64,000 bases of DNA from Octopus vulgaris (lineage: Eukaryota), in NCBI GenBank assembly GCA_951406725.2, contig OX597831.1, forward strand, positions 63,426,001 through 63,490,000, read 5' to 3'. Numbering within the stretch: position 1 is the first letter of the stretch; each line of letters begins with the position of its first letter. The notes beneath the pieces are model-generated. The model had not been told where the DNA came from. It saw only the letters and a list, made by a program, of their open reading frames with translations, and made no database searches. Shown one piece after another: positions 1-57,090 of this stretch. A program made the position numbers and the translations under genes.

Positions 1-85
1 TAAGGGTGTGAGAGAAATAGTAAAAGGAAAGTTTGCATTAATTTCTACTTATTAGCGTTGGTGTAACTATATGTGTATAGTTGCA

Positions 86-292
86 TTCAAAATGTGACCG
101 CGTGTGTATCGCTGGTGATTTTTTTCCTGTCTTCCTTTCTTGGATCTTTCCTTTTTCTATGTTTCTGACGAAGAGCTCCGCTCGAAACGTTAAACCCTCC
201 TTCTTTCTTTCCTTTCCTGAGCGGCCAATAACACTATACTTGTTCCGCGTCCTCGCGTTGTTGTTTTCATGTTTGGATTAACTTTATATGTG
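86..292 (+). mobile_element. Short non-coding element carrying a hammerhead (Penelope-type pLTR / retrozyme-like), family H1 copy 1
   Basis: Homologous to the reverse complement of 24621-24831 (CAAAATGTGACC...TGTTTGGATTAACT); contains a hammerhead core; ends in TA-rich sequence. Confidence 0.7.
161..195 (+). ncRNA. Minimal type I hammerhead ribozyme
   Basis: GTTT-CTGACGA-A-GAGC-TCC-GCTC-GAAAC-GTT-AAAC: intact CUGANGA and GAAA boxes, 4-bp stem II, stem I GTTT/AAAC, palindromic AACGTT in place of stem III as in PLE minimal hammerheads. Confidence 0.8.
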
Positions 293-423
293 TACTCGCA
301 TACACAAATACATATTTCACTGCTGAATGAAGTAATGCTGTCCCCAAACCCCAACTATTTGCATTTGTTCCACACAACGAATGCTACAAATAGGTAGTTA
401 TTGATGGAAATATATCTCACAAA

Positions 424-1499: not shown

Positions 1500-1783
1500 T
1501 TTACTGAGAACAGATAGAGTGAGAATGAAAATTATACAAGACTTGAAAATGATATGACAGTCACTGCATTCCCCTTACAGAACAATATCCCACAATGCAC
1601 TTATACAATGCCACTACTGGTAGCAAAATTTGGAATGGCTGACTGTTTTACATGGTAAATCCACTCTAAAGATATTAAAAAGTTATTCCCAATGGGTGGC
1701 ATATGCCCCACCTAAGGAACAAGGGAAAATTGTAGTAGGGCATTGGAACCAAATTTTTTTTCTTTTTCTAGAGAGACATAGAA
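1500..1783 (+). repeat. ~285-bp direct duplication, copy 2 (carries only the left end of the hAT MITE)
   Basis: Matches 424-708. Confidence 0.9.
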
Positions 1784-2086
1784 GTGAGCATTTCTTTCAA
1801 AATCAGTTTAAAGGAGAATATTTATAACTTCCAACTTTAAAATTTGCATCTGTTTCACTCCCAGTATATATCGGAACAAAAAGTTATGGTATTTAAGGTG
1901 AAGAACGTGTGTAAAAGGGCCTAAATAATACGCATATTACAAATAGTCTCTAACCGGAATAGGGGAATTATGTAAAATTTGTATTTTCAAGTTGGATGTG
2001 AAGCTGCTATCGTTTTTGTTATCCAATTTGCGGAGATGAAGCTTTGTTTCTTTGATAGGAAGCAACTCATTCAGTGTTTGCGCATA

Positions 2087-2139
<53 letters not shown>

Positions 2140-2199
2140 ACACATACATACACACATACACACATACATACATACATACAGACAGACAGACAGACAGAA

Positions 2200-3090
2200 G
2201 CTTGGACGGTAGGCAGTTAGAGAGCAACAACAGAATTGACAGGAAGAGTAGCTTCTCCTGGGCCTGCGATGGATACATTACATCCCACTTAGAAGGGTAT
2301 GCCTTCGTTATCCAGGAACAGGAAATAGATGCTAAATACCTGATAAACAAGAGATACAAAGATATCAGCAAACCTCTACTTTGTGATAAAGAAAATTGTC
2401 GGCTCTGCTACACTAGTGCGGATGATATCACCCAAAACGTCTACGAAGCGTGATAGAGTTGCAAAGACTATTTACAATACTATCCGTGGGAAGTCTGCTC
2501 TGGTGTATACATCAAAAACGCGTCAGAACTAGTATGTATTCATTCTTTTAAGAACAAGTAATACTGGTAGAACACACGAATAAAACATCAACTCGGTGCA
2601 AATATAACAAACCTGAGATTGTTCTGTGGGACGCGGAACGAAAGTCATGGACTGTTGTAGAGGTCAGCTGCCCAATCGAAAGTCCAGGGAAAAGAGAACA
2701 TTTATGACGAATTAATGAGGAACTTCCAGCTCTTGTACTCTGACTATGAACTCTCATTTGTGCTTTTCATCATAGGTACATGAGGTTATGTACCAACGAA
2801 TTTACTCAAAACCCTAGAAATACACGATTTCACGGAGAAAGAACAAAATAAACGCTTGTGGATTCTCCAAATCCAATCTATTACTGGTACAATGAAGATC
2901 TGTAAGATATTCCCAAAATTCTCCATGTTAGACTCATATGTATGCATCAACAACTCAAACAACACATCAACCCAACCACATATTTATAAATGCCGGGAAC
3001 TCTCTTAACTAAGAAAAAGTCTTGTCGCTTTATTAGCGACCGACTTAAACTTTCCTAAGAAGAACTTAAATAAAACTCGAAGAAAGCTCA
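2200..3090 (+). mobile_element. 5'-truncated RLE non-LTR retrotransposon (zinc knuckle + restriction-like endonuclease + 3' UTR), decayed
   Basis: Translations EGYAFVIQEQEI..CRLC, YNKPEIVLWD..VVEVSCP, LQIQSITGTMKICKIF match the C-terminus of RLE-bearing LINEs; frameshifts and stops present. Confidence 0.8.
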
Positions 3091-3096
3091 TACGTA

Positions 3097-3311
3097 CGAG
3101 GGGCTGCTGACAAGTTCCTGGCTTTGGATAAAAGAAAATACAGGAGGATCAGTTAATTATTGATTTTATTCAACATATTCTCCTTTCATATTCTCATACT
3201 TATTGCAGCGGTTCTTCAGTTTTTGAAACCCTATAAAAGAACTCGGAAGGTTGTGCCTCCAACCAGGTTTTTCGCGATACCCCTAAAGCCAGGAACTTTT
3301 CAGCACCCCCG
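3097..3311. mobile_element. Tc1/mariner MITE
   Basis: TIRs CGAGGGGCTGCTGACAAGTTCCTGGCTTT / AAAGCCAGGAACTTTTCAGCACCCCCG, with TA on both sides. Confidence 0.9.
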
Positions 3312-3412
3312 TACATGAATCATGCACGCATGCATGCATCCATCATTGCATATGTATATATGTATATATGTACGTATGTATGTGTGTATGTATGTATGTC
3401 ACATAATTTCCT

Positions 3413-3620
3413 TTAAACCAAAGGAATTCTCATGGACATAAGACGCTCGTTAATTCCGACTGGGAATTTTTCCAACTTGTCCACAAGAGTAGTCTTAACA
3501 GCAAATGCCACTCCAACCTCTCCTCTAAACTCTTCACTCCTCCCTTTCCAAAAGAATGTATATTCTCCACAAGATTCTGTAAGATGACCATCTCCAGGCA
3601 TCATATCTGTCAGGCATGTG
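3413..3620 (-). mobile_element. RTE (BovB-like) LINE AP-endonuclease fragment
   Basis: GDGHLTE..YTFFWKG..GVAFAVKTTL..PVGINERLMSMRIPL is a typical RTE APE N-terminus. Confidence 0.85.
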
Positions 3621-3793
3621 GAAGAGAGTGTAATTCGGCGGAATGACTTAAACGACATGCAAAGGTACATGAAGCCCAGTTGCAACTACAGCCGGCTATT
3701 ACCGGTAAAGGTTTTAGCTGCCAATTCTGTACAAGACATTGTAGATTTTTAGCTGAGCTAAAAAGTCACATTCGATCACAGCACCAATAACAG

Positions 3794-4458
3794 TTAAGCT
3801 TCGTGCAATGGCCATACTCGATAACAAGGGGACAGCCATCATGTATGTATGTATGTATGTTTATGTCAGGTCACTTTCGAGTGCTACTGGCAACATGTAA
3901 CCCAGTACAACCTGTTGCATGGTCGGGCCGTCGGCGACTAAATCGGCAACCCCACCAAGCTTGCTTCGTGAGGAGGGTGGTTATTGGACACCCTGCGGGA
4001 TGAAAAACAAAACCCGTCAAAGGGCGGAGGAACTCTTGAGAGTCAACGGCCATCCGATAAATGTGTATTTTGTTTTTCTCTTAAGGCTTAAGGCTGTATC
4101 ATGCGTGGGGACATAGAAATAATCGGACTGAATACCCGATCGCGCAGTTAAACCATTGAGAGTGAAGGACTCCTAGCCTTTGTTAGGGCATCCTTCTAGG
4201 AGAAGGTAACTCAGGTAACTGGGATAACTCCGACATAAAGCCTGCGGCTCAGTGGTTACCGATGATGTTGACTTGTTCTTCTTTTCGGATTATGGCTGCT
4301 GTTGCTTAGTGAGTGGGATTGACTCAGTGCATAGCCTTTCCTCACTTTATAAAAAATCTTCTTGCACAGGCATTGCACGATAACAACATTGATTAAGCTT
4401 CGTGCAATGGCCATACTTGATAACGAGGGGACAGCCACCATGTATGTATGTATGTATG
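3794..4458 (+). mobile_element. Non-coding retroelement ending in (ATGT)n; a 3'-end stub (3794-3860) in tandem with a ~590-bp copy (3866-4458)
   Basis: TTAAGCTTCGTGCAATGGCCATACTYGATAACRAGGGGACAGCCAYCATGTATGT occurs at 3794 and 4394. Confidence 0.7.
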
Positions 4459-5108
4459 GTTGATCATGAAGAGAAACGATGTGTCATGTATAAGATTATG
4501 AAAATGTGTTAAATGTAATTGTAAACCTAATTTTAGATAAATGGGAGGAATGTAGACTGGTGTAAAAATTCCTTGGTAAGTAGTTGAATATTGGAATTGT
4601 ATTTCTTATTAGAATGCAGTCTTAGCAAATTTATATATGTATATATATGGACAATACTACGTCTTAATAATTGGATAGGAATATATGAGAACTTAATTGA
4701 AATTTTCAAGAAAGGCTAATTTAGGGGAATAGATATTAGATTTCGTTCAGTAAACAAATGCCTAAATGGCCGGCTATTATTGTCTATTGATGTAAAAGAA
4801 ATTAGGATGGTCAGTATATATGAAGTTAAGAACAGACAAGAAAAATATAAAATAAAAGTAATAGCAATAAATGAAAAGATAAAAGTGTAACTGTAAATGA
4901 ATATAGTTTAGAGGGAAACTGTTTACAAATGCGCATAAATATACATAAATATACATACACGTGTATATGGGAATAACAATATATGTATATGTATGTGAGT
5001 GTGTGTGTAAACACGTATGTACAGATGTTCATAGATATGCGTGTATGTACGCGTACATATACAAACCCATAAGTGCACGCAGACACACGCACACATATAT
5101 ATATATAT

Positions 5109-5157
<49 letters not shown>

Positions 5158-5871
5158 CATACATACATACATACATACATACATACATACATACATACAT
5201 ACATGTATACATACATACACACACATACACACACACACATGAATAAAAAGTCAGTAATCAACCGCATTGCTGAGTGAATAATCACTTTTAATAGAGTAAT
5301 TGTTGGTAATACGGTACCATCGTTTCCCAGTGAATCAGGCTGACCCATACCAATTTTTGGCAATTATTGAAGGGCAGATAGAATAATCCCCACATAGCAA
5401 CCATATTTGTTAGACCAAATAGCTCAAAGACAAGGGCTAATCAAATCCACAAATGGATATAATTATTTAGGGATTGTAATAATGTTTTCCTTGCGTTGCA
5501 TGCTTTGCATAATGGTGGCGACATTGATACGCTCACATATACGTTAAAAATATACTATTTATAATATATGCAGACATGTACTATAAAAATGTTAAATACA
5601 ACATCGTGCAGGTTCACAATGTGTAATTGGTATTCTTTCTGTGAATATGTATTGGAGTACGTATGTTCATAAATACACAAACATACACATGTGCCATATT
5701 GGCACTATACACATAGTAAGTTGGGTATTGCTGTTACCACAAGAAGAATGTGAATAAATGCACTATCCAATAAGTGACCGAGGTGCATTGAATGCTCTCG
5801 CTAACCGCTGCTGAGACGATTTTCATCTCCCACGCATAATAGTGTGTGTGCGTGTGTGCCTCTGTGTGTGT

Positions 5872-7484: not shown

Positions 7485-7671
7485 TATTTTTTTTTGTTAC
7501 AGTCATTTGACTGCGGCCATGCTGGAGCACCGCATTTAGTCGAGCAAATCGGCCACAGGACTTATTCATTATAAGCCTAGTACTTATTCTATCGGTTTCT
7601 TTTGCCTAACCGCTAAGTTACGGTGAGGTAATCACACCAGCAGCGGTAGTAAGGTGATGTTGGGAGTACAA

Positions 7672-24620: not shown

Positions 24621-24831
24621 GTTAATCCAAACAAGAAAGCACAAAAAAACACAACAACGCGAGGACGTGAAACAAATATAGTATTATTGGACGCTCAGGG
24701 AAGAAGGAAAGAAGGTGGGCTTAACGTTTCGAGTGGAGCTCTTCGTCGGAAACATAGGAGAAGGAAAGATCCAGAGAATGGAAGGCAGAGGAAAAAAATC
24801 GCCAACGGTGCACACGAGGTCACATTTTGAA
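24621..24831 (-). mobile_element. Hammerhead element family H1 copy 2 (core mutated to CCGACGA, motif at 24718-24753)
   Basis: Reverse strand GTTT-CCGACGA-AGAGCTCCACTC-GAAAC-GTT-AAGC; its 3' end runs into (TA)n. Confidence 0.75.
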
Positions 24832-24867
24832 AGACCGGAAGGAAAAGGGTGATATATATATATACAA

Positions 24868-25016
24868 GAAAAAATGATGCCCTTCCCCCACCCCTAACCC
24901 TAACCCTAACCCTAAAACAGATTGAAATGCAATAGATCGATACTAGACTCATAATCATGGGTGACAATTTCATATGACACTGCTAGAAAAAACTGCCGTT
25001 CAAACCGAAAAGATCT
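24868..25016. mobile_element. Right end only of the GG-ended MITE
   Basis: (CCCTAA)n..CTGCCGTTCAAACCGAAAAGATC. Confidence 0.9.
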
Positions 25017-42282: not shown

Positions 42283-42357
<75 letters not shown>

Positions 42358-42359
42358 CG

Positions 42360-42492
42360 TTAGCTATAGAAGAGCGTAGGCTCCAAACGTAAAAACTTTT
42401 TCTATTCCTGAGCGTTATACTAATACATCTGTTTGTTTTGTACACCACCTGTCTTCGTCTTTTGTTTTTTTTTTTCGCAAACTCTCCCTATA
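42360..42492 (+). mobile_element. Relic hammerhead-type element 3' end inside (GATA)n
   Basis: CTATAGA-AGAGC-GTAG-GCTC-CAAAC-GTA..TTCCTGAGCG parallels 161-225; both core boxes are mutated. Confidence 0.55.
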
Positions 42493-42499
42493 GACAGAC

Positions 42500-42583
<84 letters not shown>

Positions 42584-43392: not shown

Positions 43393-45470
43393 GGCGAGTG
43401 AAGGATAAAAGATGTTACAGTATGACTGAAAGCTTGAGGAAAGGAAGTGGCAGGGGCAGTAGTGAAATATCATCATGTAATACAAAACATACATTTAAAT
43501 ACATAGTGTTTTACTACGGATATGGGCAGTACTTCTCAGCACAATCTTCTGGATTTCTCTGACACATGGTTCTCCTGGGATATTAACTAGATGTTTCTAA
43601 CATCCCTTTCTTATCATACCTAGGGAACCCACAATAACAGAAACAGTTCTCGCTTTAAGATGCCACATCTTTCGTATTTCAATTTCAATTTCCAAGTCCT
43701 TATATCTACTTAATTTGTCAAATTCCTTTATTATTCCCTTATTATTTTTATCATTATCATTATTGTTGTTGTTGTTGTTATTATTATTATTTTTATTATT
43801 GTTGTTTTTATTATTATTGTTATTATTATTACTATTACTATTATTATTATCTGTGTGTACCCCACAGTATGATTGCTTTCTCATTCTCTGTGACCTTTTC
43901 TTGCGTGTGCCTATACCATCTTTTTCTGTTGTTATTCCATAGTGTATGTAGGTCCCAGCTCTGTCGTGTCTGTGAATATATTCCTTCTTAGCCAGGACTG
44001 GGCAGCCAGAGACAATATTATTTATTGCTTCTTCCCCATCTTCACATATTCTGCAGTTACTTGTATTTCTTTTCATTACATGTTTTTGGTAATTTCTGGT
44101 GGGAAGGATTTGATCTTGTGCTGCAATTAAAAATCTTTCAGTCTCTGCTTTGAGTCTTGAGCTTCTCAACCATTGTAAGGATTTTGCTTTGTCGATTTCG
44201 TTTCTGTTTAGTTTAACCTAGTATTTGCCATGAAGGGGGCTTTTCTTGCCATCGATTTATCATGACCCGTTGCTGTTCCAGTTTTAGTTTGGATTTCAGT
44301 TGTTTTACAGCTTTTGTTGTTTCTTCTTTTTCCTTATAGTTGTTAGGTGCTATTACTCTTTTACTCTTTTACTCTTTTACTTGTTTCAGTCATTTGACTG
44401 TGGCCATGCTGCAGCATCGCCTTTAGTCGAGCAAATCGACCCCGGGACTTATTCTTTGTAAGCCCAGTACTTATTCTATCGGTCTCTTTTTGCCGAACCG
44501 CTAAGTTACACGGACGTAAACACACCAGCATCGGTTGTCAAGCAATGCTAGGGGGACAAACACAGACACACAAACACACACACACACACACACACATATA
44601 TACACATATATACGACAGGCTTCTTTCAGTTTCCGTCTACCAAATTCACTCATAAGGCATTGGTCGGCCCGGGGCTATAGCAGAAGACACTTGCCCAAGA
44701 TGCCACGCAGTGGGACTGAACCCGGAACCATGTGGTTGGTTAGCAAGCTACTTACCACACAGCCACTCCTGCGCCTATGACTCATTTTTTGTATTTGTCA
44801 GCTTCCTTAAAGACTGAAAACAGGTTTTTTTGTTTTCTTCGTGGCTATTTGTATTAGTTTTCCTTGCTTCTGTAGTCCTATGGTGGTTATTTCGTAATAG
44901 TTTTCTTGCTGTATAAGTCCTTTACCACTTTCGATACATTGTATATACAACATTTCTATGTCAGCTTTTGGTGGTGCATCCTAAATCCTGTCATTATTTT
45001 CCTTGCTTTCCTGTTTATTTTGATTAGTTCATTCAGAATCCAATTAAGAATATTCTACCTGTAACTTATAATTGGGACGGCTAGACTGTTGATGCCTATT
45101 ATCTTGTTTTTTTCTTCTGTTTTTGCGTTGAGCTCTGTTTTCAGTATTAATCTAACTCGTCTATAGTATTCTTTTCTTATCTTCTCTTTCATTTGTGCGG
45201 GTTGTATCGTATCTAGTTCATTGATTCCTAAGTATTTGTATGTCTGGCTTTGGTCTAATCCTCTTATTTCATTTGCTTTATTTAGTGTGATGTTGGTACT
45301 TTAACTAGGTTTCCTCTTTTCAAGGTTGTTTTGGCACATTTTTCCAAACCAAATTTCATGTTTATTTCTTTGGTAAATCCATGTACTGTCTGTAGTAATG
45401 TTTGTTTCCAGCTATTTATCATTTTTAGAATACAGTTTTAGACCATCCATATGTAATAGGTGGCTGATTA
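43393..45470 (-). mobile_element. R4/Dong-like RLE retrotransposon (RT C-terminus, CCHC knuckle, RLE, 3' UTR) between TAA repeats
   Basis: SHLLHMDGLKLY; LKAETERFLIAAQDQILPTRNY..CRIC..SGCPVLAKKEYIHRHD; KLSRYKDLEIE..MWHLK..VIVGSLG; (TAT)n at 43348-43392 and 45470-45530. Confidence 0.85.
44353..44779 (-). mobile_element. SINE family B inserted in the Dong-like element
   Basis: Full head and tail; approximate TSD TATTACTC/TATGACTC. Confidence 0.95.
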
Positions 45471-55489: not shown

Positions 55490-57090
55490 CTTAGTCTTTT
55501 CTACAGCCTAACTAAAATACTCAAGAACCAGATAACTAATGAAGCCTGCAAACAATCACCAGTCATATACGTAAATATCCCAGTCCCAGAAGATTTAAAG
55601 TTAAGACCCATTGTAACTGGCCCAGCGTGTGAAACCCACCGCCTAAGCAACTTTCTATGCGTCCTGCTGAAACCTTTGTTGAAATATATCAAAAGTTTCA
55701 TTAGACCTGCCAAAAACAACGAATGAAGAGACACTCATGGTTTCCTTCGATGTTACTAATCTTTACACCAATATCTCATGAATATTGAATAGATGCAATA
55801 AAATGCTGTCTAAAAAATTATCCCGAACAACATCCAGAATGTATAAACCAGGTTTTTATTGAAACTTCAAAATTTATACTTCAGAACAATTATTTCTTAT
55901 TTTATGACACCTACTACCGACGAAAATGTGGAATTGCGATGGAAACGAAAGCAGCCCCTGATCTTGCGAACCTAATAATGGGATATTTTGAATTCACCAT
56001 CTATAAAGTGTCACTACAATAATATGGATACTCATTTCACCATTATATAAGAGAGAACTTGAAAAGATATCTGGATGACGTTTTTATTATTTGAAAAGAT
56101 GCCGTTGATAAACTTTTGGAATTTAAATCAATACTAAATAGTATAAACCTCAAAATTCAGTTTACAATGGAATATAGCAAAGAACAACTAAATATTCTGA
56201 TAATAAAACTAAACAACCAAATTGTAAACGACATTTATCATAAAACAACGATCTCGAAGCAATACCTCCTGTTTAGTTCATGCCACCCGAAACAGTCAAA
56301 ATAAATATTTCTTTTAATTTGGCCAAAAGGATTTGCATAATAGTGTCTGATGGAAATATTCGGAACTTCCATCTTCCAGACCTCAGAACAACACTAGACG
56401 AGAGACACTATCCACCCTCACTTATAGATGATGGAATTAAACGTGCCAAGAAAATAGGCATTAAAACACTAAGGGAAACACAACGAAATCTCACACCTCA
56501 TCTCAAAATACTACTCTATATATCTACTCATAACCCTAGAAACCATGAGGCATACAACGCCATTGCACAAAAACTACCAATTCACTAGGGATCCAAAGAA
56601 GAACTACATTCTTTAAAAACACAAATTCATCAAATCTAAAAAGCAATCCAAATCGCTGAAAAGACCACTGACAAATGCAAAGCTACACACAACAACCACG
56701 AAACCAATAGTTAAGAAAATGCGAACATCCAAAGTGTGGAACATATCCCAACCTACAGAAAGTTTCAGAATTCCAGTTTAAACAAGGCGAGGGTCACAAT
56801 TAAGACCAACTTCACTTTGCATCCGAGAATTTAATTTATGTTATAAACTATTAAGGTTATGAACACAACTATATATAAGAGACAAGTATGTCACTTAGAT
56901 GGAGAACCACTTTGCATAGAGAACAGAGGCGTTTCCCAAGATATAGACAAATACCTTTGAGTGAACACATAGAGAGATGTGCAGGGAATCTCCAACCAAA
57001 TTTCACGGTTTTCCCATCTCCCAGCGTAAGGAAACAATTTGTGTACAAGAACGTTTAAATAGACAAAATATATTTATCGCCTAAATTTGA
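55490..57090 (+). mobile_element. Decayed Penelope-like element: RT, thumb and GIY-YIG
   Basis: LRPIVTG, LLKPL, SFDVTNLYTNIS, ILQNNYF, GIAMETKAAPDLANLIMG, RYLDDVFII, IQFTME, YLLFSSCHP, RHYP, ENLIYVI..YI..T; many stops and frameshifts. Confidence 0.92.

What the first reader, a model, noticed from the sequence alone, without database searches (positions are those of the whole stretch)
86..292. Dispersed short element with a 35-nt minimal hammerhead (second copy at 24621-24831, relic relative at 42360-42492)
Seen: GTTT-CTGACGA-AGAGCTCCGCTC-GAAAC-GTT-AAAC. Stem III is reduced to the palindrome AACGTT with no loop, so it cannot fold as a monomer. A second copy 24 kb away shares about 200 bp with near-matching ends and has a C at U4. 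A relative in (GATA)n keeps stem II GAGC/GCTC with a different loop and the downstream TTCCTGAGCG. Inference: an abundant, obligately dimeric hammerhead family that inserts in TA-type microsatellites, probably mobilised by PLEs whose remnants are in this window.
Basis: partly seen in the sequence, partly recalled or inferred. Interest (0 to 1): 0.72.

Follow-up and report, generated by a model that had tools for sequence, protein, structure and literature searches.

The report
Truncated Penelope tail with minimal hammerhead
This is the cut-short 3' end of a Penelope-like jumping gene, present in thousands of copies next to TA repeats of this animal genome, and it carries that group's known small hammerhead RNA motif, which is predicted to cut only as a pair and is likely not needed for the element to spread.

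Summary
Window 161-195 (+) fits a minimal type-I hammerhead descriptor, with 1 hit in the window and 0 in 200 shuffles. Copy 2 (24621-24852, minus) is real and has U4C. The "relic" at 42364-42494 is an internally deleted copy of a younger sister family.

The element is not a separate kind of mobile element. It is the 5'-truncated 3' end of a Penelope-like element (PLE):
- Its 3' 17-mer occurs 7,866 times in the genome.
- Copies have a fixed 3' end abutting (TA)n and ragged 5' ends.
- Longer copies align with the 3' UTR of an abundant RT + GIY-YIG PLE that carries the same module in both terminal repeats.
- Two long copies still have PLE ORF remnants upstream.

The hammerhead stretch is the least variable part of the element, and helix I covaries between families. 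Even so, only 5,118 of 37,351 modules keep CUGANGA: 9,312 have U4C and 18,984 have A6U, including those of the intact-ORF PLE. No sampled copy starts at the cleavage site. Cleavage is untested and is likely dispensable for spread.

This is a new member of a known kind (Cervera and de la Peña 2014). Earlier notes of this scan describe the same superfamily on other DNA of this genome.

The parts
84..283 (+). Family A copy 1: a short (about 200 bp) 5'-truncated 3' end of a Penelope-like element. It starts at the modal 5' end and ends in ...GGATTAAC(T).
   Evidence: 92% identical to a genomic reference copy over 187 nt
161..195 (+). Minimal type-I hammerhead motif. Helix I 161-164/192-195; core CUGACGA 165-171; bulged A 172; helix II 173-176/180-183 with loop 177-179; G12A13A14 184-186; ACGU (helix III half) 187-190; U17 191. 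Predicted cleavage between 191 and 192.
   Evidence: sequence; 1 hit in the window, 0 in 200 shuffles; fold energies
216..223 (+). CCTGAGCG box, conserved 12-40 nt downstream of the hammerhead in all families of the superfamily. Role unknown.
285..294 (.). TATATGTGTA, repeated at 68-77 on the other side of copy 1. It is either a possible target-site duplication or just the TA/TG-type target repeat.
   Evidence: sequence read directly; not tested against chance
24621..24852 (-). Family A copy 2, of the U4C subfamily, with about 20 nt more at its 5' end than copy 1. Its hammerhead relic is at 24719-24753 (CCGACGA, broken loop-closing pair of helix II). (TA)n lies on both sides.
42364..42494 (+). 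Family B copy with an internal deletion that removed the 5' core box. It is flanked by (GATA)n at about 42283-42357 and 42500-42583.
55493..57010 (+). Degenerate, frameshifted PLE ORF remnant (aa 224-744 of the 781-aa PLE family of this genome). It is not the family that carries this hammerhead module.
   Evidence: tblastn E 1.4e-94; 39-78% identity in pieces

Best explanation
Window 84-283 is a 5'-truncated 3' end of a Penelope-like retrotransposon lying in a TA-type microsatellite, and at 161-195 it carries the minimal type-I hammerhead motif of that group, which is predicted to cleave between 191 and 192 only when two copies pair through their ACGU stretch.

Shown:
- The copies have one fixed 3' end next to (TA)n and ragged 5' ends, the footprint of target-primed reverse transcription.
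- The longer copies are homologous to the whole 3' UTR of an abundant PLE with an RT + C-terminal GIY-YIG ORF. That PLE carries the same module in both terminal repeats and also sits in (TA)n.
- Two long copies still have PLE ORF remnants upstream.

Inferred:
- The short copies were made by the PLE reverse transcriptase/endonuclease starting at the element's 3' end and stopping early. Stops fall often at an AUGUG stretch that can pair with TA/TG target repeats.
- The hammerhead fold has been kept in the source copies: it is the least variable stretch, helix I covaries and N7 is free.
- Fast self-cleavage is likely not required for spread. Lineages with U4C or A6U cores, including one with intact ORFs, make up most of the superfamily, and no copy starts at the cut site.
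For: Motif:
- 1 hit in the window, 0 in 200 shuffles.

Family:
- 7,866 exact 3' 17-mers, reversed control 0.
- I took 91 of the first 100 listed places. Of these, 53 start at reference positions 304-316, 35 are cut shorter, 2 are long forms and 1 has a 25-nt extension.
- The 3' flank is a TA microsatellite in 75 of 91, and the 5' flank in 45 of 91.

Link to PLEs:
- 12 of 12 loci found with the GIY-YIG-region protein carry the module 380-490 nt after the ORF stop on the same strand.
- L249 reads hammerhead / 1049-aa ORF / hammerhead / (TA)n. L250 reads truncated unit + full unit (1214-aa ORF) between (TA)n runs.
- In the ORF, RVT_1 is above its cut-off and GIY-YIG is below it at 17 bits. The endonuclease region matches that of another PLE whose GIY-YIG passes the cut-off (BLASTP E 7e-14).
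- The long family A copy aligns with this 3' UTR: 349 of 447 aligned columns identical, score 167 against shuffles of 53 +/- 9.5.
- PLE ORF remnants lie upstream of long A copies L033 and L040/L046, at 53-71% aa identity.

Selection on the fold:
- Non-CpG divergence is 118/2034 in the 35 hammerhead columns against 896/10397 in the flanks (Fisher p 1.4e-5; cells are not independent).
- The lowest-divergence 35-column windows start at reference 381-384.
- Helix I is G2.4-C1.4 in family A and C2.4-G1.4 in families B and C.

Cleavage dispensable:
- Counts are 5,118 canonical, 9,312 U4C and 18,984 A6U of 37,351 modules.
- U4C marks a subfamily with linked diagnostic sites.
- 0 of 91 copies start within 3 nt of the cut site.
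- Frangieh et al. 2024 (PMC11167929, passages read) report that catalytic HHR mutants do not affect PLE insertion in vitro.
Against: - No full PLE with a family A tail and an intact ORF was found. Only 2 of 12 long A loci show ORF remnants within reach, and 10 kb upstream of three others showed none.
- The sharp mode of 5' ends (53 of 91) could mean that the short form has source copies of its own, that is, a non-autonomous element.
- The hammerhead stretch being the best conserved part is also what a working ribozyme would show. Perreault et al. 2011 (PMC3088659, passages read) write that U4C lowers activity in vitro yet still permits viroid infectivity, so U4C lineages may still cut.
- The GIY-YIG match of the parent ORF is below Pfam's cut-off.
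- Nothing here measures cleavage.
Confidence: 0.8

Rival explanations
1. The 200-bp form is a non-autonomous element in its own right, SINE-like or retrozyme-like. It would derive from a PLE tail but have its own source copies, and be copied in trans by PLE enzymes.
For: - 53 of 91 copies start within 13 nt of each other, and long forms are rare at 2-3 of 91.
- Distinct subfamilies exist, defined by linked sites.
Against: - 35 of 91 copies form a continuous series of shorter truncations, and homology runs on upstream into a PLE 3' UTR and ORF remnants.
- The modal start sits at AUGUG, next to TA or TG repeats in the flank, so microhomology can explain it.
- A run of 7 T inside the unit argues against Pol III transcription (the terminator rule is recalled knowledge).
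- 113 of 120 loci hold a single copy, unlike retrozyme arrays.
Confidence: 0.25
2. The motif is a working, obligately dimeric ribozyme whose cleavage is a needed step of the element's life cycle.
For: - Copy 1 has a complete canonical core.
- The hammerhead is the least variable stretch.
- Helix I covaries, and all four letters occur at N7 across lineages.
- PLE min-HHRs cleave weakly as dimers in vitro (PMC4209133). Lünse et al. 2017 was seen only as cited in PMC6765202.
Against: - Only 5,118 of 37,351 modules keep CUGANGA.
- The A6U form sits in both terminal repeats of a PLE with 1049- and 1214-aa open frames.
- A6 changes give low activity (PMC3088659).
- 113 of 120 loci are solitary, so no partner lies in cis.
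- The ACGU self-duplex is -1.7 kcal/mol and AACGUU -3.5.
- The monomer prefers a fold that pairs U4-G8 with C15.2-A1.1, at -7.7 against -3.8 kcal/mol.
- 0 of 91 copies start at the cut site.
Confidence: 0.2
3. It is a retrozyme that spreads through a circular RNA made by hammerhead cleavage and ligation.
For: - Short non-coding unit with a type-I hammerhead.
- Some family B loci hold 3-4 units in a row.
- The class is known in molluscs (PMC7229834, passages read).
Against: - Family A copies have fixed ends about 105 nt upstream and 90 nt downstream of the cut site, and are solitary in 113 of 120 loci.
- In the B arrays the units are separated by (TA)n, as repeated insertion into the same target would give.
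Confidence: 0.05
4. It is a LINE-dependent SINE in which a hammerhead-like string arose by chance.
For: Dispersed, short, 5'-truncated copies with a microsatellite at the 3' end would also fit some LINE/SINE pairs (recalled knowledge).
Against: - 0 of 200 shuffles give the motif.
- The same module sits in the terminal repeats of an RT + GIY-YIG element.
- There is no tRNA, 5S or 7SL match.
Confidence: 0.02

Closest known systems
Minimal type-I hammerheads (min-HHR) in the terminal repeats of metazoan Penelope-like elements (Cervera and de la Peña 2014, PMC4209133; main text read)
   Same: - Type I topology with no loop 3 and palindromic 15.2-16.2.
- An unpaired nucleotide between A9 and 10.1, and G10.1-C11.1.
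- Helix I of 4-5 bp without a defined loop 1.
- Thousands of copies per genome, most of them single motifs in truncated PLEs.
- Core variants occur.
   Different: - Helix II is only 4 bp with a 3-4 nt loop, whereas the paper describes 6-8 bp.
- The most common cores here are A6U and U4C, not the U3-A8 covariation the paper reports.
- The host is another animal group. I did not see the paper's supplementary figures, which may list more taxa.
Dimer-cleaving small hammerhead variants of PLEs (Lünse, Weinberg and Breaker, RNA Biol; seen only as a citation and one review passage in PMC6765202; the paper itself is not held)
   Same: Short or absent stem III, so that two motifs must pair to form the active fold.
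   Different: Cleavage of this motif has not been measured. I could not compare sequences with that paper.
(TA)n-targeting PLEs of cephalopods and other invertebrates (Craig et al. 2021, PMC8557442; passages and rows of supplementary file S1 read)
   Same: - Insertion preference for (TA)n.
- Partial tandem units and 5' truncation.
- Rows for octopus Naiad and Hydra-1 families list (TA)n as the target.
   Different: - The parent found here has a C-terminal endonuclease and a unit of about 4.5 kb, unlike Naiads (N-terminal endonuclease) and longer than the listed Hydra-1 entry (2,507 bp).
- Its clade was not determined.
Metazoan non-LTR retrozymes (Cervera and de la Peña 2020, PMC7229834, passages read; Li, Clavereau and Pollet 2026, 10.64898/2026.07.22.740005, abstract and outline seen)
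   Same: Short non-coding repeats with type-I hammerheads that coexist with, and are thought to derive from, PLEs.
   Different: Retrozymes are tandem arrays expressed as circular RNA. Family A copies are solitary in 113 of 120 loci and have fixed ends away from the cut site.
Poseidon PLE of the green anole, PAc (Frangieh et al. 2024, PMC11167929, passages read)
   Same: A PLE with a hammerhead in its repeat, where catalytic mutants did not change insertion in vitro and no RNA-seq ends were seen at the cut site.
   Different: That hammerhead overlaps the ORF start. Here it lies about 125 nt before the unit's 3' end.

Membership tests
Hammerhead ribozyme, type I, PLE min-HHR variant | Conserved core C3 U4 G5 A6 N7 G8 A9 ... 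G12 A13 A14 | tested here: met
   Met by copy 1 (window 165-171 and 184-186). Not met by copy 2 (U4C). Copy 3 has its 5' box deleted. Genome-wide, 5,118 of 37,351 modules meet it.
Hammerhead ribozyme, type I, PLE min-HHR variant | Helices I and II can form; cleavage-site nucleotide H17 is not G | tested here: met
   GUUU/AAAC and GAGC/GCUC pair, and U17 is present. The hammerhead fold scores -3.8 kcal/mol, but a competing fold scores -7.7.
Hammerhead ribozyme, type I, PLE min-HHR variant | Helix III with A15.1-U16.1; in min-HHRs there is no loop and 15.2-16.2 is palindromic, so it forms between two molecules | tested here: met
   ACGU at 187-190. The self-duplex is weak, at -1.7 kcal/mol for ACGU. 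The dimer fold crosses itself when written for one strand, so it could not be scored as a whole.
Hammerhead ribozyme, type I, PLE min-HHR variant | Extra nucleotide between 9 and 10.1, and a G10.1-C11.1 pair (traits listed in PMC4209133) | tested here: met
   A172; G173-C183. The extra A is present in all 40 loci, and G10.1-C11.1 was required by the pattern that chose them.
Hammerhead ribozyme, type I, PLE min-HHR variant | Base pairs supported by compensatory change | tested here: inconclusive
   One pair covaries between families: 2.4-1.4 is G-C in A and C-G in B/C, with G-U in an A subfamily. Helix II never varies, which says nothing. The 40 loci were picked by me from 100 listed rows.
Hammerhead ribozyme, type I, PLE min-HHR variant | Match to a curated Rfam hammerhead model | tested here: not met
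   No match at gathering score in the window, nor at E up to 10 in positions 1-400. I expect this for a motif without stem III (recalled: the Rfam models include stem III).
Hammerhead ribozyme, type I, PLE min-HHR variant | Self-cleavage at H17 | not testable with these tools
   No raw RNA reads were on offer, and contigs show no ends.
Penelope-like element (endonuclease-bearing, C-terminal GIY-YIG) | Single ORF with reverse transcriptase followed by GIY-YIG endonuclease | tested here: met
   Met for the parent-type element, not within the window copy, which is only a tail. L249 has a 1049-aa ORF and L250 a 1214-aa ORF. RVT_1 scores 32 bits against a cut-off of 29.6. GIY-YIG scores 17 bits, below the cut-off of 22.6. 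BLASTP to the endonuclease region of another PLE gives E 7e-14. Frameshifted remnants lie upstream of long A copies.
Penelope-like element (endonuclease-bearing, C-terminal GIY-YIG) | Terminal direct repeats / partial tandem units with a hammerhead in each | tested here: met
   Hammerhead modules lie 4,508 and 4,482 nt apart on either side of the ORF in L249 and L250. L250 holds a truncated unit joined to a full unit.
Penelope-like element (endonuclease-bearing, C-terminal GIY-YIG) | 5'-truncated copies and microsatellite ((TA)n) target preference | tested here: met
   (TA)n flanks L249 and L250.
Penelope-like element (endonuclease-bearing, C-terminal GIY-YIG) | Optional 30-40 bp 'tail' extension at one end of insertions | tested here: inconclusive
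   A 20-30 nt extension occurs at the 5' side in window copy 2, in 5 of the 30 best-matching loci and in 1 of 91 sampled copies. It may simply be a longer truncation product.
Non-LTR retrozyme | Short tandem arrays of the unit | tested here: not met
   7 of 120 family A loci hold a second copy nearby. Two of these are inverted pairs, two are single copies split by a gap in the match, and none is an array. Family B has 2 of 20 loci with 3-4 units.

The most novel reading that the evidence does not exclude
In this genome the Penelope hammerhead is kept as a fold, not as a fast ribozyme. A PLE lineage with intact 1049- and 1214-aa ORFs carries a fixed A6U core in both terminal repeats. In all, 86% of about 37,000 modules have non-canonical 5' boxes. 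Yet helix I still covaries, N7 is free, and the motif is the least variable part of the tail. This would mean the structure serves something else, such as recognition or pairing of the template RNA by the dimeric PLE enzyme.
Probability: 0.3. Interest if true: 0.55.

Novelty: new member of a known kind. Interest (0 to 1): 0.3.

Why it matters
As it stands, the finding is ordinary. Minimal hammerheads in truncated PLE copies have been known since 2014, and (TA)n-targeting PLEs of cephalopods are in print.

The family does offer a natural series of core variants: canonical, U4C, and A6U with all four letters at N7. These sit in otherwise near-identical modules, and one variant lies in a PLE with intact ORFs. 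That makes an open question testable: do PLE hammerheads need to cut at all, or are they kept for another reason? Frangieh et al. 2024 raised this in vitro.

Tried and rejected
- Rfam: no family reaches its gathering score in the window. In positions 1-400 only two chance mir-297 matches appear.
- RNA evidence: no RNA holder listed. Contigs of four coded runs laid on 86-292 gave no places where molecules begin or end and no joint at 191/192. The depth peak over the hammerhead is one figure per contig and is not used as evidence.
- Partner search by the best GIY-YIG hits: the 30 loci are mostly one family with a 781-aa ORF. They carry no A/B/C tail except three incidental insertions. Five representatives extended upstream show no canonical hammerhead and no homology.
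- Pfam on 26 of the 59 window ORFs of 110 aa or more found no PLE domain. The remnant at 55493-57010 was missed because it is frameshifted, and was found later by tblastn.
- The 10 kb upstream of three long A copies (L035, L036, L038) showed no PLE ORF.
- Scoring the whole double hammerhead with ViennaRNA failed because the fold crosses itself.
- Earlier-notes look-ups by sequence, by place nearby and by six words gave nothing.
- The paper of Lünse et al. is not held.
- A tRNA or other small-RNA head for a SINE reading: none found.
- Considered and dropped: that copy 3 is a decayed copy of family A.

Full report
**Observation**

Window 161-195 (+) reads GTTT CTGACGA A GAGC TCC GCTC GAA ACGT T AAAC. 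In hammerhead numbering:
- helix I is GUUU/AAAC;
- the core is C3-A9;
- one unpaired A follows the core;
- helix II is 4 bp with G10.1-C11.1 and a 3-nt loop;
- then come G12 A13 A14, A15.1 C15.2 G16.2 U16.1 without a loop, and U17;
- the predicted scissile bond lies between 191 and 192.

A descriptor I wrote for such loop-less type-I motifs finds this one site in the window on both strands, and none in 200 dinucleotide-preserving shuffles. Rfam finds no hammerhead.

Copy 2 (24621-24852, minus strand) is 85.8% identical over 218 nt. It has CCGACGA, a broken loop-closing pair in helix II, and G at 1.3.

The third element (42364-42494) keeps helix II with loop GUAG and the downstream TTCCTGAGCG.

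**The family**

The genome is a 2.8-Gb animal genome in 227 contigs. Earlier notes of this scan call it a cephalopod.
- The 207-nt stretch has at least 1,823 first-look candidates. The 39 other scored copies are 86-93% identical to it.
- Each of the 30 loci returned holds one copy.
- The 3' terminal 17-mer occurs 3,983 + 3,883 = 7,866 times, and its reversed control occurs 0 times.

I took 91 of the first 100 listed places on contig C1. These were 30 loci, 60 fetched stretches and L012; the last nine rows were left out to save calls. So the sample was chosen only by the 17-mer.

Aligned to a real long copy, the 5' ends fall as follows (L143 was reassigned by eye because its local alignment caught only CA-rich sequence):

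| 5' start | Copies (of 91) |
|---|---|
| Reference 304-316 (modal) | 53 |
| Further in, scattered from 318 to about 503 | 35 |
| Long forms | 2 |
| 25 nt longer than the modal start | 1 |

The starts at 313-314 abut TATAT or GTGTG in the flank. The junction there is ambiguous, as microhomology between the element's AUGUG and the target repeat would give. That reading is an inference.

The flanks are as follows:

| Flank | TA microsatellite | Other microsatellite | None |
|---|---|---|---|
| 3' side | 75 | 11 | 5 |
| 5' side | 45 | 19 | 27 |

Of 120 family A loci, 113 hold a single copy. Two hold inverted pairs, one head-to-head and one tail-to-tail.

**It is a PLE tail**

Some copies run on upstream. 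A 121-nt piece of that upstream part is itself repeated, with 323 first-look candidates. In 12 of 12 loci it is followed by the hammerhead part on the same strand, after a CA-rich stretch of variable length.

Notes of earlier agents say that related mini-elements were cut from the end of a Penelope-type element. Following that lead, I looked upstream of copies of the youngest relative, family C.
- Homology runs about 1.4 kb upstream and into an ORF with a GIY-YIG-like stretch.
- That stretch matches the endonuclease region of another PLE of this genome: 35% identity over 74 aa, E 7e-14. The other PLE's GIY-YIG passes Pfam's cut-off.
- This 260-aa piece has 42,265 first-look candidates, of which 147 were scored, with open frames up to 1,214 aa.
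- In 12 of 12 loci returned, the module CUUU CUGUUGA A GAGCGUAGGCUC GAA ACGU U AAAG lies 380-490 nt after the stop codon on the same strand.

Two extended loci show the layout:
- L249: hammerhead at 771, ORF 1644-4790 (1049 aa), hammerhead at 5279, (TA)n from 5415.
- L250: (TA)n, a truncated unit with a hammerhead at 3075, a full unit with a 1214-aa ORF, a hammerhead at 7557, then (TA)n.

The ORFs have RVT_1 above its cut-off, followed by a GIY-YIG match below its cut-off.

Family A links to this element in two ways:
- The long family A copy aligns with this element's whole 3' UTR, including its CA-rich part. 349 of 447 aligned columns are identical, and the score is 167 against 53 +/- 9.5 for 200 shuffles.
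- Upstream of long A copies L033 and L040 (continued in L046) lie frameshifted ORF remnants on the same strand. They are 53-71% identical to aa 548-922 of that ORF.
- No such remnant was seen within 10 kb upstream of three other long copies, and no family A element with an intact ORF was found.

**The hammerhead across copies and lineages**

Within the 91-copy sample:
- At columns that are not CpG, the 35 hammerhead columns differ from the majority letter in 118 of 2,034 cells. The flanks differ in 896 of 10,397 (Fisher p 1.4e-5). Cells are not independent, because copies share descent.
- The least variable 35-column windows start at reference 381-384, just before the motif.
- Of 73 copies that span the motif, 44 keep all fixed core letters and 25 also keep every pair.
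- U4 is C in 15 of 74 copies. These share four to five other diagnostic letters, so a source copy with U4C went on making copies. Window copy 2 belongs to this group.
- Position 1.4 is C in 41 copies and U in 30, and both pair with G2.4.

Genome-wide exact counts (all reversed controls 0):

| 5' box before GAAGAGC-N3-5-GCTCGAAACGT | Count |
|---|---|
| All modules | 37,351 |
| CUGANGA (canonical) | 5,118 |
| CCGANGA (U4C) | 9,312 |
| CUGUNGA (A6U) | 18,984 |
| Other boxes | 3,937 |

The module with the downstream CCTGAGCG box occurs 23,892 times.

I picked 40 loci from the 100 rows to represent the variants. Their 5' boxes, which the pattern did not constrain, were:

| 5' box | Loci (of 40) |
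|---|---|
| CCGAYGA | 10 |
| CUGUUGA | 17 |
| CUGUAGA | 6 |
| CUGUCGA | 1 |
| CUGUGGA | 1 |
| CUGAAGA | 1 |
| CUGAUGA | 2 |
| Broken | 2 |

- C3, G5, G8 and A9 hold in 38 of the 40.
- N7 takes all four letters.
- Position 4 is U or C, and position 6 is A or U.
- Helix I is GUUU/AAAC in the A lineages and CUUU/AAAG in the A6U lineages. This is a two-sided change at pair 2.4-1.4.
- H17 is U, A or C, and G in only 2 of the 100 rows.

Family B copies are 93-96% identical to the window copy. Family C copies are near-identical in the alignment, so the A6U lineages are the younger ones.

**Would it cut?**

- The minimal 35-mer prefers a hairpin in which U4-G8 pair with C15.2-A1.1, at -7.7 kcal/mol. 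The hammerhead fold with helices I and II scores -3.8.
- The intermolecular helix is weak: -1.7 kcal/mol for ACGU and -3.5 for AACGUU. The AACGUU pairing would also take in A14 and U17.
- Cervera and de la Peña found low activity for PLE min-HHRs even as dimers (PMC4209133).
- Perreault et al. write that U4C lowers activity in vitro but still permits viroid infectivity, and that A6C gives kobs below 0.1 per min (PMC3088659).
- If cut RNA were a common template, copies would start at position 1.1 (reference 416). Instead, 0 of 91 copies start within 3 nt of it; the nearest starts are at 404 and 420.
- Frangieh et al. report that core mutants do not change insertion by an anole PLE in vitro, and that no RNA-seq ends lie at its cut site (PMC11167929).
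- No RNA reads were on offer for this genome, so cleavage in vivo remains untested.

**Verdict**

The element is a truncated Penelope-like tail, a kind described in 2014, and (TA)n-targeting PLEs of cephalopods are listed in Craig et al. 2021.

What is less ordinary is the make-up of the superfamily. Most modules, including those of a PLE with intact ORFs, have U4C or A6U cores, while the rest of the fold stays conserved. Earlier notes of this scan reached the same point on other windows of this genome.

I searched the held papers for these core variants and for hammerheads in this animal group, and found no description of these families. Repbase, Dfam and the 2014 paper's supplements were not seen.

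Noticed in passing
window 24884-24912: A short telomere-type run, (CCCTAA) about four times, lies some 30 nt beyond the 5' end of copy 2. In the element's sense it reads TTAGGG repeats just upstream.
   Followed up: no
window 55493-57010 (+): Frameshifted remnant of a PLE ORF (aa 224-744 of the 781-aa family; E 1.4e-94). My first ORF/Pfam pass missed it.
   Followed up: partly
window 43597-44217 (-): 206-aa open frame with a weak zf-RVT match (E 0.0023, below the cut-off). It may be a reverse-transcriptase remnant of another retroelement.
   Followed up: no
L053 and relatives (G000:C16:20837296-20840559 and many others): A second PLE family has many copies with an intact 781-aa frame: at least 18 rows with a 781-aa open frame. 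Its 3' UTR holds several repeats built around GATGACGTC and no canonical hammerhead within 1.5 kb.
   Followed up: partly
L249:4150-4790 and L233:5978-6757: The parent PLE's ORF runs on for about 180 aa after the GIY-YIG stretch, as a proline/serine-rich low-complexity tail.
   Followed up: no
L003:2206-2790 and flanks of L004, L005, L007, L008, L010, L011, L017, L018, L026, L029, L030 and others: Another abundant repeat of roughly 200-600 bp, unrelated to the hammerhead element, recurs in either orientation in the flanks of many of the 30 loci.
   Followed up: no
window 161-195: The monomer's best fold pairs U4-G8 with C15.2-A1.1 and so hides the core, at -7.7 against -3.8 kcal/mol. This pairing uses N7 = C.
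   Followed up: partly
window 86-292, runs X1, X3, X16, X17: Contigs from runs under four coded organism labels hold the family at 85% likeness or more. The U4C letter (T>C at 166) makes up about 43-46% of summed depth in each, so the split into U4 and C4 lineages seems shared among them.
   Followed up: no
L041 and L042 (G000:C1:220013271-220016391 and 219995510-219998630): Two loci 18 kb apart are 95% identical over 3.1 kb. This is a local segmental duplication that carries a long family A copy, with an inverted PLE ORF fragment upstream.
   Followed up: no
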